Origin: Candidatus Saccharimonadota bacterium
Lineage (GTDB): Bacteria > Patescibacteriota > Gracilibacteria > BD1-5 > UBA6164
Length of the DNA: 32,000 nt
Direction: 5' to 3'
Assembly (NCBI GenBank): GCA_965229705.1
Contig: OZ245922.1
Span: 240,001 to 272,000, forward strand
The notes under the pieces are model-generated. The model was not told the origin of the DNA, did no database searches, and saw only the letters and a program-made list of their open reading frames with translations. Shown here one piece after another: positions 7,739 through 30,973 of this stretch. The translations under genes were made by a program, and so were the position numbers. Positions within the stretch are counted from its first letter, which is position 1. Each line of letters starts with the position of its first letter.

Positions 7739-8518
7739 GTGTTACTCAAAATAGAAATCATCTTACTTTTCGTAAGTTGCCTGTATATTATCTACTTTAC
7801 CCTTGATAGATTAGGAAGTTTTTTGTGGTGAAAACATCAACGCAAGCTCAGAAAATATGCTCGAGCATGAGAGAGTGAACAGTATGGAGAGACGGATATA
7901 AAAACTCCAGAATCAGACATCCAAGAAGAAGATGTATCTGCAAGCTCAGATACAAAGCATACAGCCAGAATACGAGAAATCATCAAGCGCTGCGAAGTGC
8001 ATATCTCACGAAACTCTATTGAGCTTGCGAAAAATCTTATTGTGCAAGGCTTATCGCTTGATAAAAATCATACAAAACTCAACCTGCTACTGGCAGATGT
8101 ATATGAAAAACAAGAGAAATACCAAAACGCAGAGTATATATATAGAGACATGCTTGATGAGTCTCCAGATGATACTTATATATTGTGAAGACTTGGGAAT
8201 ATATACTATATCAGAGGAAAGATAGAAAAATCTCTTTCTTGCTATCAGCGTGCTCTGAAAAAAGACAAAAACAATATTGAGATCCTCGATATACTCGCGC
8301 ATCTTTTGGCAGAACACTGAGACTATGATGCCTGCGTTACAACTGCCTGTGCATTTCTCAAGCAAAAACCACGAGACGGAGAAAAACTCTCTTTGAAATG
8401 ATATGCTCTTGAAAAACTCTGAAAACCATCAGAAGCTCTCACGAATTATAGGCTCGTTTTAGAGGTTGATCCATATAATAAAGAGATACTTTCAAGAGTA
8501 AAAAAACTTGAGTCATAA
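7739..8518 (+). CDS. membrane-anchored TPR-repeat protein
   Basis: The frame of track ORF 7997..8188 extends in code 25 from GTG 7739 to TAA 8516-8518. There is no in-frame ATG after the upstream stop at 7688-7690. N-terminal TM helix LLKIEIILLFVSCLYIIYFTL, then TPR-like repeats (AEYIYRDML, KSLSCYQRALKKD, EALTNYRLVLEVDP). The start codon is uncertain. Confidence 0.6.
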
Positions 8519-8620
8519 GCAGTCTCTGAGAAACAAAAAATTTCTAATCCTCTCTGGATCTATCGAGCCATCTCTCCTTTGAAAAAGGAGAAAAAAAAGA
8601 AGTTTCTCAGAACTTCCTTA
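8517..8620 (+). repeat. R1: ~100-bp inverted-repeat-bounded intergenic element (MITE-like or structured RNA)
   Basis: About 90% identical to 30869..30973. Ends TCTGAGAAAC (8525-8534) and GTTTCTCAGA (8602-8611) are perfect inverted repeats inside a ~19-bp imperfect TIR. Internal hairpins at 8556-8569 and 8573-8591. The 5' end abuts the TAA of the TPR gene. Confidence 0.8.
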
Positions 8621-8726
8621 ACAAGTTTTTTACACCCGAGGAAGTTTTTGACAGAAAAAAAAAGATGCAGTTGAGATGTCTGTATTTTTTTTTACTCTCA
8701 GTGCATATTTTATACCTTTTTACAAT

Positions 8727-10387: not shown

Positions 10388-10390
10388 AAA

Positions 10391-10622
10391 AAACTTTGAG
10401 AAATGAGGTACTCTCGTATATAAGAGACCGGTCTCGAAAACGTAGAAATCAATCCGTTCTGGTTCTATCGAACCATATCTCCTTTCAAAAAAAGAGACAA
10501 ATCTATCTTCCCCTCCCTTACTAAGGGAGGGGCTAGGGGAGGGGTGTATATTTTAGAGATGACTTGCTAGAGTCAGAGTAGATGAGAGATTCTTTGTACT
10601 TCTCAGAAATTCTCTGAGGAAG
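10391..10622 (+). repeat. R2: long composite member of the same element family in the valS leader
   Basis: Left end CTTTGAGAAAT (10394-10404). Palindrome module (10424-10435), hairpin module GGTTCTATCGAACC..TCTCCTTTCAAAAAAAGAGA (10461-10497), GC-rich hairpin/G-tract (10510-10544) and a degenerate right end CTTCTCAGAAA (10599-10609). Confidence 0.6.
10510..10544 (+). other. GC-rich hairpin overlapping a four-G-tract (G-quadruplex-type) motif
   Basis: CCCCTCCCTT (10510-10519), loop ACT, AAGGGAGGGG (10523-10532): a 10-bp stem. GGGAGGGGCTAGGGGAGGGG (10525-10544) has four G-runs of at least 3 separated by 1-3 nt. Confidence 0.7.
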
Positions 10623-10651
10623 AAAAATATAAAAGATTTTTGAAAAAATGG

Positions 10652-10688
10652 CTTTACAGATATATTTTTTGTAAAGTTATTTTTTTTA
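10652..10688 (+). promoter_or_regulatory. weak terminator-like hairpin just upstream of the valS start
   Basis: CTTTACA-(11 nt)-TGTAAAG followed by TTATTTTTTTT, ending 13 nt before ATG 10701. The stem is AU-rich and therefore weak. Confidence 0.25.
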
Positions 10689-13456: not shown

Positions 13457-14551
13457 ATGAAAATAGGTATTGTCTGACTTCCAAATGTTGGAAAATCAAC
13501 GCTCTTCAATGCGCTGACAAAAAATTATGCAGCAGATGCGCAAAACTTTCCATTTTGTACTATTGAACCAAATGTTGGTATCGTGAATGTGCACGATGAA
13601 AGACTGGAAAAAATCCAAAAAGCAGTCCAAGGAGCAAAGGTCATTCCTGCGAGCTGTGAGTTCACTGATATTGCCTGAATCGTGAAATGAGCCAGTGAAT
13701 GAGAGTGAATGGGGAATAAATTTCTTGCTAATATACGAGAAGCAAGTGCTATCTTGCAAGTAGTACGAGTTTTTGAGAACAATGATATTACTCATGTTCA
13801 TGGGGAGCTGAATCCCAAAAATGATATCGAGGTTATCAATGCTGAGCTCATACTTGCAGATATCGAAACTCTAACAAAAAGAATTGCTGGAGAGTCAAAA
13901 AAAGCTCGATGAGATAAGGATATTGCCGCAAAGGTGGCAACGCTCCAAAAGACTCTTGCAGAGCTTGAGTCGGGAAAACTTGCATGAGACCTCAGTCTGA
14001 GTGATGATGAGCGACTCCATCTCCAAGACTCTCATCTCCTCACAAATAAGCAGTTTATATATGCCTGTAATGTGAGTGAGGATATGATGGACGCGAGTGA
14101 GCAGGAACTCAAAAAATATATGTGATTCAATACTGATACTGAACTCAAAGGGAGAGTCGTGCCGATTTGCGCGAAACTCGAAGAAGATATGATAGAGATG
14201 TCGGGGGAAGAGAGGAAGGCGTTTCTGGATGATCTGGGTCTTGTTTCCACCGGTTTAGATAGACTCATACAAGCCAGTTATGATGCTCTTGGCCTTCAGT
14301 ACTACTTTACTGCTGGAGAGCAAGAGGTTCGAGCGTGGACAGTAAAGAGATGAGCAACTGCTTCCGAGGCAGCATGAGTGATACATACAGATTTTGAAAA
14401 GTGATTTATCAAAGCTGATGTCGCTCTTTGGTCTGATATTGTGGAGTTTTGATGATGGTCTTGAGCGCGAGAAAATGGAAAAGTAAGACTAGAGGGAAAA
14501 GACTATATTGTTCAGGATGGAGATGTCATCCTCTTTAAGTTTCAGAGTTAG
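13457..14551 (+). CDS. ychF: ribosome-binding ATPase YchF
   Basis: [21 protein letters not shown] (P-loop Gly is TGA), [47 protein letters not shown]. Fragments 13709.. and 14159.. are in frame. TAG 14549-14551. Confidence 0.93.
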
Positions 14552-14697
14552 GAGAATGTAGAAAAACTTCGTATTTCATCGTCAAAATCTAATATTGTCT
14601 TCAAACAAGTACAGTGAATACGCTTATTTCATCCAAATTGATTTTTCCTTGAATTACTTGTTTTTACACATTTTCTATTTTTCTATGCTTCCCTAGA
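14552..14697 (+). repeat. copy A of a ~145-nt structured intergenic element (candidate ncRNA or 3'-UTR element)
   Basis: Aligns without gaps to 21704..21849, roughly 85-90% identical by eye. Begins immediately after the ychF TAG. Nested inverted repeats 14557-14566/14678-14687 and 14584-14597/14634-14645. Confidence 0.8.
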
Positions 14698-21703: not shown

Positions 21704-21849
21704 GGGAAATGCGGAAAAACTTCGTATTTCGTCGTCAAAATCCAACATTGTCTTCAAACACGTACAATCAGTACGCTTATTTCAGCCAAGTTGGTTTTTC
21801 CTTGAACTACTTGTTTTTACACATTTCCTATTTTTCCGTGCTTTCTAAG
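21704..21849 (+). repeat. copy B of the ~145-nt structured intergenic element
   Basis: Begins immediately after the TAA of the polyprenyl synthase gene and ends at the tatD stop (21851). Stems 21710-21719/21831-21840 and 21737-21750/21787-21798 are maintained by compensatory changes relative to copy A. Confidence 0.8.
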
Positions 21850-23295: not shown

Positions 23296-23415
23296 TTAAG
23301 AAATCTCTGAAAAATAGAAAAATCTTGTGTAAGAGACCGGTCTCAAGCCCTTAAAATAGATGACTCGAGACCGGTCTCGAGAAAACAAAAATGACTTTCT
23401 TAGAGCTTCCTTAAG
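23296..23415 (+). repeat. R3: family member whose core is replaced by two GAGACCGGTCTC palindromes
   Basis: Its ends TTAAGAAATCTCTGAAAAAT and CTTTCTTAGAGCTTCCTTAAG match the R1/R4 ends. The core carries palindromes at 23333-23344 and 23364-23381. Lies between uvrC and the next minus-strand gene. Confidence 0.7.
23364..23381. repeat. 18-bp perfect palindrome CTCGAGACCGGTCTCGAG
   Basis: Self-complementary over 18 bp. Its 12-bp core GAGACCGGTCTC recurs at 23333-23344 and 10424-10435, three copies in an AT-rich 32-kb window. Confidence 0.9.
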
Positions 23416-25221
23416 TTACACTAAACCATGGTCCTCAAGGTTTTCTGTAACAGATTTCCCAAGAGTAGATAACAACTCTGATCTTTGGATTTTTTTGAGA
23501 TTTTCGACATTTCAAAACTGTGTAAGAATCTTTTTACGTGTTTTTGGACCAATTCCCGGAAGAGACTCAAGAATATTTTTCTTGAGAGATTTTGATCGAG
23601 AATCTCTATTAAAACTGATAGCAAACCTATGAGCCTCATCACGCAGCATCTGCAAGAGTCGAAGCTCGGAAGAATCTTTCTCCAAGATGAGTGGTTCAGA
23701 ACGTCACGGAAGAAACAATTCTTCTTCTTTTTTCGCGATAGAGACTATTTGTAGAGTAGGAAACTCAACATTATCTGATGCAAAACTCTTTATTACCTCC
23801 ATCACTGCTCAGAGCTGTCATTTTCCTCCATCTATGAGTATTAGATCAGGAGAATTTCAGAGTTTTTCTCGTTCTTTGAGTCGTCGAGACATGATCTCTC
23901 GCATAGAAGCAAAGTCATCAATTTTTCATTCTTCTAGGCTCTTAATACGAAAACGCTTATATTTTTTGGGATTTTTTTTGCCATTTTCTACGACGCTTCG
24001 ACTGGCGACCGTATGATTTCCTGACAGGTGAGAGATATCATTACATTCAAAAACCAGAGTATCATTGATTTCTTTATATCAGAGCATATCTAAGAGCTGA
24101 CTCATAGTTTGCTTACTGGAGTTTTTGATACTGAGAGAATCTCTGTATTTTTTATGAGCGTACTCATATATATTTTTATAGCAGAGCTTGAGGAGTTCAT
24201 ACTTTGTTCAGAGTTCGGGCACTTCATAGTCTATTTCGGTGATAACTTTTTCTATAGCAAAGGGGAGGATAAAACGAAGCTGCTGTTTTTGCTGATTTTC
24301 TACCCATTTTTGTTCTACGATATGTTGCATAATCTCTTCTTTTTTATACCCTAGCTCGTTCTCTAGCTCGTAGTTTTCGTATCCACTAATCTTTCCTTGG
24401 TCTATTTCGATCACTCAGAGATAGTTTTTTTCATACTTTTCTAGTACCTGTAGGACAAAATAATTCCCTTTGACGCCATCTCGCACGAATTGTTTATTTT
24501 CCAGGTTTTCAAGCGCCTCAAGGCTGAGTTTATATTTTTGAGCTTCTTCAAATAACTGCTGCTTTGCTGTTTGATGCATCTTTTCTGTGAGTTCTTTTTT
24601 TACTCTTGAGATATTTCCTCAGAGAAAAAAAGAGATTTCTTGTATTTTTTCTGTATAGATTTTATGAATATGTTCCTCAGAACTTTTGATATTTCCAGCA
24701 AAAAGATATTCATCAAGATTATAGGATCACTTTTTTTTAAAAAAATTATGACTCCCAACACCATAACCATAGATTTTTTTTATGAGTTTGAGGATTTCTG
24801 CCACATGATTTCATGATATATAAGGACCAAAATATTTCCCAGGGGCACTCTGTATTTCGCTTGGAGACTTGCGTGTTCTGATGATTTTAGGATATTTTTC
24901 TTTTGTGATGCAGATATAGAGAAAGTTTTTTCCATCTTTGAGAAGAACATTGTATTTTGGGTGATGTTTTTTGATGAGGTCGTTTTCAAGTATGAGAGAC
25001 TCTGTTTCTGTATTGGTAATGATATATTCAATATTTGAGATATACTGCACCATCTGCTTTTTTGCAAAATTGAGTTTTTGCGTCCCAGAGAAATAGCTAC
25101 TCACTCGCGATTTGAGATTCTTGGATTTTCCGACATATATTATTTTTCCAGACGCATTAAAAAACTGGTATATTCCAGGAGAGTGGGGAAGTGATCGAAG
25201 AATATCTTTAATAGAGTTCAC
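23416..25221 (-). CDS. uvrC: excinuclease ABC subunit C (UvrC)
   Basis: N-terminal GIY-YIG domain (PGIYQFFNASGKIIYVGKSKNLKSRVSSYF). C-terminus LRDEAHRFAISFNR...LPGIGPKTRKKILTQF-G-NVENL (HhH). TAA 23416-23418. There is no in-frame ATG; candidate starts are GTG 25219-25221 (used here) and TTG 25249-25251. Confidence 0.88.
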
Positions 25222-30370: not shown

Positions 30371-30841
30371 ATGGCAAAAGAGAGCGATTTTTTTAGAACA
30401 TTGATGCGAGTGATTGTGTCAGCTTCGATTTATACCCTAATGTTATTGGTTGCGGGCTATATCTTGTATATGACACTGTTTTTGGTATACAAAGTTATAT
30501 CTGCTATCATGATCCATATTTGATACTTATGAGATTTTACAGAATCGGGATTGTCTCAGGCAAGTTCTATGAGTATTATCTTGACAGAGGAGATTTTGAG
30601 TGTGGTAACGATTATTTTAGTATTGGTAAAGTCATTTAAGATACTGATTTCCTACTCAAAACATCATCATATAGAGATCAAACCTCTTGTCGAGATTGCT
30701 ATTATTGCCTTACTGATGGAAGTGGTGTTCAACTTTGGAGCTCATTCTATGGAGATAAATTGGCTTTTCGCTGTTTTTGGTCTCGGGCTTTTAGTCATTT
30801 ATGCAGTTTTTCCATACTTTCGTAAAAAGGTGAAGGCTTAG
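30371..30841 (+). CDS. small multi-pass membrane protein (possibly PsiE-like)
   Basis: ATG 30371 is in frame with fragment 30551..30841 through two TGA codons. Four predicted TM helices. The PsiE-like assignment rests on architecture only and is tentative. Confidence 0.5.
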
Positions 30842-30868: not shown

Positions 30869-30973
30869 TTAGGAAGCTCTGAAAAACAAAAAAATTCTAA
30901 TCCTCTCTGACTCTATCGAGCCATCTCTCCTTTGAAAAAGGAGAGAAAAAGGTGTTTCTCAGAGCTTCCTTAA
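30869..30973 (+). repeat. R4: ~100-bp inverted-repeat-bounded intergenic element
   Basis: TTAGGAAGCTCTGAAAAAC at the left end versus GTTTCTCAGAGCTTCCTTAAC at the right end (17 of 19 positions complementary). Internal hairpins at 30909-30922 and TCTCTCCTT/AAGGAGAGA. Confidence 0.8.

What the first reader, a model, noticed from the sequence alone, without database searches (positions are those of the whole stretch)
8517..8620. Family of ~100-bp intergenic elements bounded by ~19-bp inverted repeats (R1/R4), MITE-like or a three-way-junction RNA
8517-8620 and 30869-30973 are about 90% identical. Both are closed by inverted termini, best seen in R4: (TT)AGGAAGCTCTGAAAAAC ... GTTTCTCAGAGCTTCCT(TAA).
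Both contain two internal hairpins:
- GGNTC-TATC-GANCC. Its third pair is A:G in R1, C:G in R4 and T:A in the related copy at 10461-10474, so C:G to T:A co-varies.
- TCTCCTT-TGAAA-AAGGAGA.
The second hairpin pairs an anti-SD-like CTCCTT with an SD-like AAGGAG, in a genome whose genes otherwise show no SD.
The flanks read TA or TTA on both sides (R3 and R4: TTA...TTA), which is compatible with a TA or TTA target duplication. The architecture recalls Correia elements or REP-type intergenic repeats, but no transposase is present in the window.
Basis: seen in the sequence. Interest (0 to 1): 0.7.

Follow-up and report, generated by a model that had tools for sequence, protein, structure and literature searches.

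The report
Miniature transposon-like repeats in Gracilibacteria
The ~100-bp repeats are small non-coding transposon-like insertions (MITEs) that landed on TA or stop-codon sites between genes of a UGA-recoded Gracilibacteria genome. They are ordinary in kind but not yet described for this lineage, and they carry a conserved double hairpin that in a related genome also occurs alone, once in frame inside a gene.

Summary
R1 (8519-8617) and R4 (30872-30969) are 88% identical, are closed by 16-17-nt inverted termini, and are flanked by TA-containing triplets.

The window is a code-25 (UGA=Gly) Gracilibacteria genome with no Shine-Dalgarno sites. It holds six such elements:
- Four R-type: R1, R4, R3 (23300-23410, same termini but a different interior) and a decayed R2 (~10423-10514).
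- Two copies of a 142-nt family, D1 (14552-14693 and 21704-21845), with related termini.

Collinear loci from relatives lack R1, D1a and D1b. The ispA and tatD stop codons are 0-3 nt apart there, against 147 nt here. The flanks read TAA/TAA, TAG/TAG, TAA/TAA, TTA/TTA and TTAA/TTAA. Three elements sit exactly on a stop codon and regenerate it.

This is a MITE family, a new member of a known kind. No transposase is in the window, and the rest of the source genome could not be fetched.

One result was unexpected. The R interior, a variable small hairpin plus the invariant CATCTCTCCTTTGAAAAAGGAGAGAAA hairpin, occurs without the termini four times in 34.5 kb of the closest relative, once in frame inside rsmB. 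The cargo therefore looks like a separately spreading, RPE-like palindromic module. A dedicated three-way-junction RNA is not supported.

The parts
8519..8617 (+). R1, a 99-nt MITE copy. It lies between the stop codon of the TPR gene (TAA 8516-8518, the left flank repeat) and TAA 8618-8620 (the right flank repeat), upstream of the conserved CAAGTTTTTGACA motif and of dnaB (ATG 8727).
   Evidence: Absent from the same intergenic spacer in L006, L007, L013 and L014.
8519..8534 (+). R1 left terminal inverted repeat, GCAGTCTCTGAGAAAC (decayed; 3 mismatches to the consensus).
8602..8617 (+). R1 right terminal inverted repeat, GTTTCTCAGAACTTCC.
8546..8599 (+). R1 core module: AATCCTCTCTG, small hairpin P2 (8556-8569, one A:G mismatch), and hairpin P3 (8573-8591, TCTCCTTT-gaa-AAAGGAGA).
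30872..30969 (+). R4, a 98-nt MITE copy and the best preserved one. Flanked by TTA 30869-30871 and TTA 30970-30972. It starts 27 nt after the stop of the membrane-protein gene (30839-30841) and ends 85 nt before the next ATG (31055).
30872..30887 (+). R4 left terminal inverted repeat, GGAAGCTCTGAAAAAC.
30954..30969 (+). R4 right terminal inverted repeat, GTTTCTCAGAGCTTCC.
30899..30952 (+). R4 core module: P2 at 30909-30922 (GACTC-TATC-GAGCC, one A:C mismatch) and P3 at 30924-30946 (10-bp stem).
   Evidence: P3 plus its flank is 27/27 identical to L012 18162-18188.
23300..23410 (+). R3, a 111-nt element with R-type termini (GAAATCTCTGAAAAAT ... CTTTCTTAGAGCTTCC) but an unrelated interior holding two GAGACCGGTCTC palindromes. 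Flanked by TTAA 23296-23299 and TTAA 23411-23414. Its right flank repeat lies 1 nt from the uvrC stop (23416-23418, minus strand).
   Evidence: (I25).
10423..10514 (+). R2, a decayed R copy (about 64-66% identical to R1/R4). Its left end is GAGACCGGTCTCGAAAAC, P2 is perfect (10459-10472), P3 is degenerate, and the right end is ...CTCCCTTA. It lies in a spacer of 313 nt before valS, where relatives have about 80 nt. More degenerate terminus-like sequence follows up to about 10620.
14552..14693 (+). D1a, a 142-nt element of a second family. It is flanked by TAG 14549-14551 (the ychF stop codon) and TAG 14694-14696. Its termini resemble the R termini (left GGAGAATGTAGAAAAAC, counting one base of the TAG flank; outer right rc GGGAAGCATAGAAAAAT).
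   Evidence: (D1). Absent after the ychF stop in L006, L007, L013 and L014.
21704..21845 (+). D1b, the second D1 copy (86% identical to D1a). It is flanked by TAA 21701-21703 (the ispA stop codon) and TAA 21846-21848, and fills the gap between the convergent ispA and tatD stops.
   Evidence: In L008-L011 the two stop codons are 0-3 nt apart.

Best explanation
[quoted passage not shown] This is a ~100-bp non-coding DNA element bounded by 16-17-nt terminal inverted repeats (consensus GGAAGCTCTGARAAAC).

Inferred mechanism: a DDE-type transposase encoded elsewhere, not in this window, inserted the copies at TA-containing sites and duplicated 2-3 bp (TA, or TAA/TAG/TTA).

The same or closely related termini also enclose two other interiors, R3 and the 142-nt D1 family. 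This is the pattern expected when several non-autonomous elements use one transposase.

The genome is very compact, and the target contains TA. Stop codons (TAA/TAG) are therefore among the few harmless targets. Three of six copies sit exactly on a stop codon, and the duplication regenerates it.

Shown: repeat family, termini, flank repeats, empty orthologous sites, absence of coding capacity.

Inferred: the transposase class (IS630/Tc1-like if the duplication is TA; IS5/Harbinger-like if it is 3 bp). Also inferred: the copies are co-transcribed as 3'-UTR hairpins with, at most, side effects on mRNA stability.

The R interior is a conserved double-hairpin module that has its own distribution in a relative, so R is best read as 'termini + captured palindromic module'.
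For: 1. Repeat family far beyond chance. R1 and R4 are 88% identical.
2. Terminal inverted repeats: 16/17 in R4, 12/17 in R1, 11/17 in R3.
3. Empty sites:
   - The TPR-dnaB spacer is 208 nt here, against 120, 106, 15 and 124 nt in L006, L007, L013 and L014. In L007 the stop codon is followed directly by CAACTTTTCTACA, the homologue of the sequence that follows R1.
   - The ispA and tatD stops are 0-3 nt apart in L008-L011, against 147 nt here.
   - There is no D1 after the ychF stop in four relatives.
4. The flank repeats differ between copies: TAG/TAG, TAA/TAA, TTA/TTA, TTAA/TTAA and TAA/(T)TAA. This is what a target duplication predicts and what a fixed element end does not.
5. The same termini enclose unrelated interiors (R3 and D1).
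6. No ORF, no Rfam family and no tRNA. Both strands fold strongly: R4 + strand -38.4 kcal/mol (z -5.9), - strand -50.9 kcal/mol (z -7.2). This fits a DNA palindrome.
7. Decayed and truncated relatives (R2, and R1's left end) are what ageing mobile-element copies look like.
Against: - No transposase, and no full-length IS with these termini, was found. There is none in the window and none in about 250 kb of relatives' loci (gene tables).
- The rest of the source genome could not be read, so copy number is known only for 32 kb.
- The duplication length is ambiguous. Only TA is invariant, and the 3-bp readings need a 1-nt register shift in R1 and D1a.
- The relatives are distant (TatD 55-59% identical), so 'empty site' formally also fits loss in the relatives. 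That would need several independent precise losses.
- All six copies point the same way. A cut-and-paste DDE model does not predict this (about 1/16 by chance, taken within families).
- The R core exists without the termini in a relative. The termini therefore cannot explain the whole history of the sequence.
Confidence: 0.72

Rival explanations
1. The elements belong to a hairpin-recognised, single-strand-transposed class: REP/REPIN with a RAYT, or IS200/IS605-type PATEs. In this reading the enzyme recognises the P2/P3 hairpins, the termini are secondary, and insertion is strand-specific.
For: - The double-hairpin module occurs without the termini in the closest relative, four times in 34.5 kb.
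- P3 is invariant in sequence, whereas the P2 stem varies but still pairs: GTTC/GGAC, GTCC/GGAC, GTCT/AGAC, CCC/GGG, GGTTC/GAACC.
- All six window copies have one orientation.
Against: - There is no GTAG or CGTC tag next to the palindromes (sequences; family definition in PMC3733652, listed).
- No Y1/HUH transposase gene appears in any gene table.
- The R and D1 ends are inverted repeats of each other, not two like-oriented subterminal hairpins.
- The right flank triplet co-varies with the left flank (TAG/TAG against TAA/TAA), as for a true duplication.
- P2 and P3 are unlike each other, whereas IS608-type left and right hairpins are alike (own knowledge).
Confidence: 0.12
2. The element is a structured RNA, a three-way junction (P1 = termini, P2, P3). 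It would act in cis (as a 3'-UTR stabiliser or terminator, or as an SD-sequestering switch) or as a small RNA, and would be kept by selection on the RNA fold.
For: - R4 folds far better than shuffles (z -5.9).
- P2 keeps pairing with different sequences among copies, and the rsmB-borne P3 shows one compensatory T:A to C:G change.
- P3 is 27/27 identical across genomes whose TatD is only 59% identical.
- R1, R2 and R4 are sense to the flanking genes.
- In the relatives an ATG or TTG follows AGGAGAG by 0-6 nt.
Against: - There is no Rfam match at gathering score or at a relaxed threshold.
- The minus strand folds even better.
- No promoter-like or terminator-like site lies within or next to R1 or R4.
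- Contexts are heterogeneous: 3' of genes, antisense between uppS and ispA, inside a coding sequence, and in a divergent promoter region.
- The P1 termini also enclose unrelated interiors (R3, D1).
- RNAalifold on the copy alignment finds almost nothing (-0.5 kcal/mol, no compensatory pair), though that alignment is not structure-aware.
- No gene in the window uses an SD.
- Palindromic DNA can keep its symmetry without any RNA function.
Confidence: 0.1
3. The sequence is an ancestral, vertically inherited leader or terminator of the dnaB region, not an insertion.
For: It lies in a conserved syntenic spacer next to a conserved promoter-like motif.
Against: - Four relatives lack it at that spacer, while the flanking motifs are retained.
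- An 88% identical copy sits 22 kb away in an unrelated spacer.
Confidence: 0.02

Closest known systems
Correia elements (CREE) of Neisseria, and similar TA-duplicating bacterial MITEs (RUP of S. pneumoniae, ERIC/IRU of enterobacteria)
   Same: - They are 100-150-bp non-coding elements with terminal inverted repeats that fold into long hairpins.
- They are intergenic, often at gene ends, and are flanked by TA.
- For Correia no transposase is known.
- Co-transcription gives hairpins that affect mRNA processing (review PMC10969869). The TA duplication of Correia and RUP is from my own knowledge.
   Different: - There is no sequence similarity.
- The host is a code-25 CPR bacterium.
- Here three of six copies sit exactly on stop codons.
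- No promoter-like sites were found in the element, whereas Correia carries promoters and an IHF site.
- The duplication may be 3 bp rather than 2.
IS5-family / PIF-Harbinger-derived MITEs (Tourist-like; 3-bp TWA/TNA or 4-bp YTAR duplications)
   Same: - The termini begin GGAAG, like IS5 itself: GGAAGGTGCGAATAAG in E. coli IS5A, against GGAAGCTCTGAAAAAC here, 11 of 16 identical.
- The flank triplets TAA, TTA and TAG fit a 3-bp TA-containing duplication. The subgroup duplication sizes are from my own knowledge of ISfinder.
   Different: - The terminus similarity was picked post hoc and is short.
- TAG is not TWA or TNA.
- No DDE_Tnp_1-type transposase was seen.
- A 2-bp TA reading fits equally well.
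Rickettsia palindromic elements (RPE)
   Same: This comparison concerns the core module only.
- It is a short palindromic repeat that spreads to many sites.
- It can sit in frame inside a protein-coding gene without breaking it. In L012, rsmB gains about 20 codons (...HPLCSKDISPLKKERNID...).
- It has no recognisable transposase partner.
   Different: - The module is about 52-65 nt, against 100-150 nt for RPEs.
- It is unrelated in sequence and occurs in a different phylum.
- In the window it is packaged between MITE termini.
BOX elements of S. pneumoniae (modular boxA-boxB-boxC repeats)
   Same: Both have a modular build, with conserved end modules enclosing variable or exchangeable inner modules. 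Repeats cluster and nest (review PMC10969869). Compare the R2 region, 10420-10620.
   Different: There is no sequence relation. BOX has no clear target duplication, whereas the R and D1 copies do.

Membership tests
MITE (prokaryotic miniature inverted-repeat transposable element) | Small size (about 50-500 bp) and no coding capacity. | tested here: met
   The elements are 98-142 nt. There is no ORF, no tRNA and no Rfam hit.
MITE (prokaryotic miniature inverted-repeat transposable element) | Terminal inverted repeats. | tested here: met
   R4 16/17, R1 12/17, R3 11/17. D1 has inner and outer terminus-like repeats.
MITE (prokaryotic miniature inverted-repeat transposable element) | Flanking target-site duplication. 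| tested here: met
   The flanks read TAG/TAG, TAA/TAA, TTA/TTA, TTAA/TTAA and TAA/(T)TAA, and they vary between copies. The length (2 or 3 bp) is unresolved.
MITE (prokaryotic miniature inverted-repeat transposable element) | Multiple dispersed copies in the genome. | tested here: met
   There are four R-type and two D1 copies in 32 kb. The genome-wide count could not be tested because the source contig could not be fetched.
MITE (prokaryotic miniature inverted-repeat transposable element) | Presence/absence polymorphism (empty sites in related genomes). | tested here: met
   Met for R1, D1a and D1b. Inconclusive for R4 and R3, because the relatives are not collinear or not alignable there.
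MITE (prokaryotic miniature inverted-repeat transposable element) | An autonomous IS with matching termini and a transposase. | not testable with these tools
   There is none in the window or in the relatives' gene tables.
IS5-family-derived MITE | Termini like IS5-family inverted repeats, and a 3-4-bp TA-containing duplication. | tested here: inconclusive
   11 of 16 bases match the E. coli IS5 terminus. The triplets TAA, TTA and TAG fit, but TA alone fits as well.
IS630/Tc1-mariner-derived MITE (Correia/RUP-like) | A strict TA dinucleotide duplication. | tested here: inconclusive
   TA is present on both sides of all six copies, but in register only if 1-nt slack is allowed at R4 and D1a.
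REP / REPIN (RAYT-mobilised) | A 20-40-nt palindrome tagged by GTAG or CGTC at one end, with a RAYT gene in the genome. | tested here: not met
   The tag is absent from P2 and P3 in the copies. The RAYT gene cannot be tested.
Any curated RNA family (Rfam 15) | A covariance-model score at or above the gathering threshold. | tested here: not met
   There were 0 hits in the whole window. The best relaxed hits score 22 bits or less against thresholds of 39 or more.
Rickettsia palindromic element-like repeat (core module only) | A palindromic repeat tolerated in frame inside protein-coding genes. | tested here: met
   The L012 rsmB insertion of about 20 codons has no stop codon. A shorter hairpin lies in frame at one rsmB site in L010/L011, L012 and L019. 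This is a resemblance in behaviour only, not homology.

The most novel reading that the evidence does not exclude
The conserved double-hairpin module (AATCCTCTCTG, a variable small hairpin, then CATCTCTCCTTTGAAAAAGGAGAGAAA) may be a mobile or selected element in its own right in Gracilibacteria. In this reading an unknown enzyme or factor recognises it through an invariant hairpin. It can insert in frame into genes, and in this genome it has been picked up between MITE termini. A stronger version is that its SD-plus-start look-alike (AAGGAGAG, 0-6 nt, ATG), sequestered in a hairpin, acts as a portable translation-start or regulatory cassette in a lineage that otherwise lacks SD sites.
Probability: 0.2. 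Interest if true: 0.6.

Novelty: new member of a known kind. Interest (0 to 1): 0.35.

Why it matters
CPR/Patescibacteria genomes are tiny and are usually thought to carry few mobile elements. The MITE review read here does not list CPR/Patescibacteria among the hosts, and a full-text search found no paper that mentions Gracilibacteria together with miniature inverted repeats.

Six copies in 32 kb of a ~1.0-Mb genome would mean a notable repeat load, if the window is representative.

Insertion exactly onto TAA/TAG stop codons shows how TA-targeting elements can survive in a genome whose convergent genes are 0-3 nt apart. In a UGA-recoded genome, TAA and TAG are the only stop codons.

Practical points:
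- These repeats can break assemblies and mislead gene callers.
- They mark strain-level polymorphisms.
- The in-frame module insertions in rsmB of relatives are a caution for protein annotation.

Tried and rejected
1. Public scans for the core pattern TCTATCGANCCATNTCTCCTTT. Genome contigs gave one chance hit in Tateyamaria. Metagenome contigs gave four chance hits in a high-GC cspA leader. Viral contigs gave none for the core or the terminus. In hindsight the pattern included the variable P2 hairpin.
2. Fetching the source genome. TatD and the last gene of the window match P0121 and P0241 (UGA read as Trp, contig 1,006,762 bp), but the look-up of encoding contigs has no record of them.
3. R4 empty site. 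The relatives are not collinear there (L016) or carry an extra VIT1 gene and unalignable spacers (L017).
4. Plasmid BLAST of R4 and D1b gave no match.
5. DNA-uptake-sequence idea for AAGGAGAG. It occurs only 0-5 times per 15-32 kb source (window or locus).
6. Intramolecular triplex idea (upstream TCCTCTC mirrors the P3 arm). The L013 copy co-varies, but the L012 rsmB copy does not, so the idea was dropped.
7. Hammerhead and other small ribozymes, and integron attC. The core motifs (CUGANGA/GAAA; RYYYAAC/GTTRRRY) are absent on reading the sequence, and Rfam is negative.
8. A weak module hit inside VIT1 of L017 is ordinary coding sequence.
9. RNAalifold on the MAFFT copy alignment is uninformative, because P2 is out of register between long-stem and short-stem copies.

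Full report
**Context**

Under table 11 the window has no ORF longer than 218 aa. With only TAA and TAG as stops, ORFs reach 934 aa. UGA falls on conserved glycines, for example the first Gly of the YchF P-loop GIVGLPNVGKS. The DnaB of the window is 86-88% identical to proteins that NCBI names Candidatus Gracilibacteria. This is therefore a code-25 Gracilibacteria chromosome with 36% G+C.

The genes are packed tightly. They include Band_7, Grx, PPK2, RuvC, DprA, a TPR protein, DnaB, ValS, YchF, RsmB, SecF, UppS, IspA, TatD, UvrC, Xth, GrpE and TilS. The order is conserved in relatives. None of 26 start codons is preceded by an SD-like motif.

**The observation**

R1 (8519-8617) and R4 (30872-30969) align at 87/99 = 88%. 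The 22-nt core occurs three times in the window against 0.00 expected. The 20-nt terminus occurs four times at <=3 mismatches against 0.01 expected.

R4 is closed by 16/17 complementary termini (GGAAGCTCTGAAAAACA / rc GGAAGCTCTGAGAAACA). R1 reaches 12/17 because its left end has decayed.

The larger internal hairpin (TCTCCTTT-GAA-AAAGGAGA) is real, with 8 bp in R1 and 10 bp in R4. The smaller one is imperfect in both copies: GGATC/GAGCC in R1 and GACTC/GAGCC in R4. It is perfect only in the diverged copy at 10459-10472.

R4 folds at -38.4 kcal/mol (z -5.9) on the + strand and at -50.9 kcal/mol (z -7.2) on the - strand. R1 folds at -26.4 (z -2.6) and -30.8 (z -1.2) respectively. The fold is a property of a DNA palindrome, not of one transcript strand.

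**More members**

Searching with the termini revealed R3 (23300-23410). Its ends are R-type (GAAATCTCTGAAAAAT ... CTTTCTTAGAGCTTCC), but its interior is unrelated and is built around two GAGACCGGTCTC palindromes.

R2 (~10423-10514) is a 64-66% identical, decayed copy. It lies in a 313-nt spacer before valS that measures about 80 nt in relatives. More degenerate terminus-like sequence follows it, and a ~30-nt piece of the host promoter/hairpin region is duplicated around it.

A second family, D1, has two 142-nt copies that are 86% identical (14552-14693 and 21704-21845). D1 folds end to end. Its right end carries an outer repeat, rc GGGAAGCATAGAAAAAT, which resembles the R terminus GGAAGCTCTGAAAAAC. 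One kind of terminus thus encloses three unrelated interiors.

**Empty sites**

- R1. The TPR-dnaB spacer is 208 nt in the window. It is 120, 106, 15 and 124 nt in L006, L007, L013 and L014. The window sequence after R1 (CAAGTTTTTTACA...) is homologous to what follows the stop codon in those relatives, and follows it directly in L007.
- D1b. The ispA and tatD genes converge. Their stop codons are 3 nt apart in L008/L009 and adjacent in L010/L011. In the window they are 147 nt apart, and D1b plus one extra TAA accounts for the difference exactly.
- D1a. It follows the ychF stop codon, and none of four relatives has it.
- R4 and R3. The relatives are not collinear or not alignable at these sites, so they remain untested.

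**Flanks**

| Copy | Left flank | Right flank |
|---|---|---|
| D1a | TAG | TAG |
| D1b | TAA | TAA |
| R4 | TTA | TTA |
| R3 | TTAA | TTAA |
| R1 | TAA | (T)TAA |

Because the repeat differs between copies (TAG against TAA within one family), it behaves as a target duplication and not as a fixed element end. Only the TA is invariant. With six copies I cannot decide between a 2-bp and a 3-bp duplication.

R1, D1a and D1b sit exactly on the stop codon of the upstream gene, and the duplication regenerates that codon. R3 ends 1 nt from the uvrC stop. In a genome where convergent genes can be 0-3 nt apart, TAA/TAG stop codons are among the few TA sites where an insertion is harmless. This last step is inference.

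**The unexpected part**

R is little more than termini plus a ~52-nt module: AATCCTCTCTG, a small hairpin P2, then CATCTCTCCTTTGAAAAAGGAGAGAAA (P3). That module occurs without the termini in the closest relative, GCA_028112045.1 (loci L012 and L013; TatD only 59% identical). There are four full copies in 34.5 kb:

- between uppS and ispA, where the spacer is 68 nt against 4-12 nt elsewhere;
- between secF and the VTT-domain gene, about 55 nt extra;
- 13 nt before the ruvC ATG;
- in frame inside rsmB, adding about 20 codons.

P3 is 27/27 identical to R4. P2 differs in sequence between copies but still pairs: GTTC/GGAC, GTCC/GGAC, GTCT/AGAC, CCC/GGG and GGTTC/GAACC.

A shorter P3-type hairpin lies in frame at one rsmB position in L010/L011, L012 and L019. 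The L012 copy has a compensatory T:A to C:G change. The module therefore has its own history of spread and behaves like Rickettsia palindromic elements. What moves it, and why P3 is so conserved, is unexplained.

**What it is not**

- No Rfam family matches, at gathering or at relaxed thresholds.
- No tRNA or tmRNA is present.
- No promoter-like or terminator-like site lies in or beside R1 or R4.
- Nothing matches in plasmids or viral contigs.
- No transposase is present in the window or in any relative's gene table.
- It is not a DNA uptake sequence.
- RNAalifold on the copy alignment gave no support for a conserved RNA fold, although the alignment is not structure-aware.

**Mechanism and comparison**

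The best-supported reading is a family of non-autonomous DNA transposons (MITEs) mobilised in trans. Correia, RUP and ERIC elements are the closest in behaviour: size, termini, TA flanks, gene-end location and hairpin transcripts (review PMC10969869).

The termini begin GGAAG and match the E. coli IS5 terminus GGAAGGTGCGAATAAG at 11 of 16 positions. Together with TAA/TTA/TAG triplets, this is a lead towards an IS5/Harbinger-type transposase. It is not a test.

The hairpin-recognition rival (REP/RAYT or IS200/IS605-like) is kept at about 0.12, because of the terminus-less modules and the uniform orientation. It fails the GTAG/CGTC tag test. A dedicated three-way-junction RNA is kept at about 0.1.

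**Verdict**

It is a new member of a known kind and of moderate interest. The interest lies mainly in the host lineage (a recoded CPR bacterium), the stop-codon landing sites, and the separately spreading hairpin module.

Noticed in passing
whole window: The genome uses genetic code 25 (UGA = Gly). Table-11 ORFs stop at 218 aa or less, while TAA/TAG-only ORFs reach 934 aa, and UGA sits on conserved glycines. None of 26 genes has an SD motif upstream.
   Followed up: yes
window 14552-14693 and 21704-21845: There is a second MITE-like family, D1: 142 nt, 86% identical copies, each inserted exactly on the stop codon of a + strand gene (ychF TAG, ispA TAA) between convergent genes. Both copies are absent from relatives.
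   Followed up: yes
L012 18142-18192; L010 18396-18420; L011 14263-14287; L012 rsmB upstream of ILDACAAPGG; L019 20790-20825: Hairpin modules lie in frame inside rsmB of relatives. One is a ~20-codon insertion in L012. A shorter hairpin is shared by three genomes at one site (peptide ..SP..GEMK..), with a compensatory stem change in L012. The ATG after AAGGAGAG is in frame just before the SAM-binding motif.
   Followed up: partly
window 10388-10425 and 10635-10680: The valS upstream promoter/hairpin motif (TTGAAAAAATGGCTTTG...TATAT..., conserved in L006, L007, L013 and L014) is present twice in the window, on either side of the ~215-nt R2 insertion complex. This is too long for a normal target duplication.
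   Followed up: partly
window 10505-10545: A G/C-rich perfect hairpin, CCCCTCCCTTA-C-TAAGGGAGGGG, is followed by CTAGGGGAGGGG and abuts the decayed right end of R2. It may be a head-to-head junction of two element ends.
   Followed up: no
window 8621-8655: Directly after R1 the conserved motif appears twice: CAAGTTTTTTACA, then CCCGAG, then GAAGTTTTTGACA. Relatives have one copy (CAAGTTTTTGACA). This could be a footprint or a small duplication next to the insertion.
   Followed up: no
window 8655-8700; L006 8800-8850; L007 9925-9965; L014: A hairpin followed by a run of 7-10 T is conserved in position, but not in sequence, between the TTGACA-like motif and the dnaB start in all relatives. It is either the terminator of the TPR gene or a dnaB leader structure.
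   Followed up: no
window 10424-10435, 23333-23344, 23367-23378: The 12-nt perfect palindrome GAGACCGGTCTC occurs three times (0.01 expected), always at R-type left ends or inside R3. GGTCTC itself occurs 22 times in the window, against roughly 7 expected from base composition.
   Followed up: partly
window, all six elements: R1, R2, R3, R4, D1a and D1b all lie in the same orientation on the + strand, although the neighbouring genes are on both strands. The sample is too small to call significant.
   Followed up: no
L016 1110-8163: In one relative the gene orthologous to the window's last gene sits next to a serine recombinase (Resolvase), an HTH protein and an N6/N4 DNA methyltransferase. This is a probable mobile or restriction-modification island that is absent from the window.
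   Followed up: no
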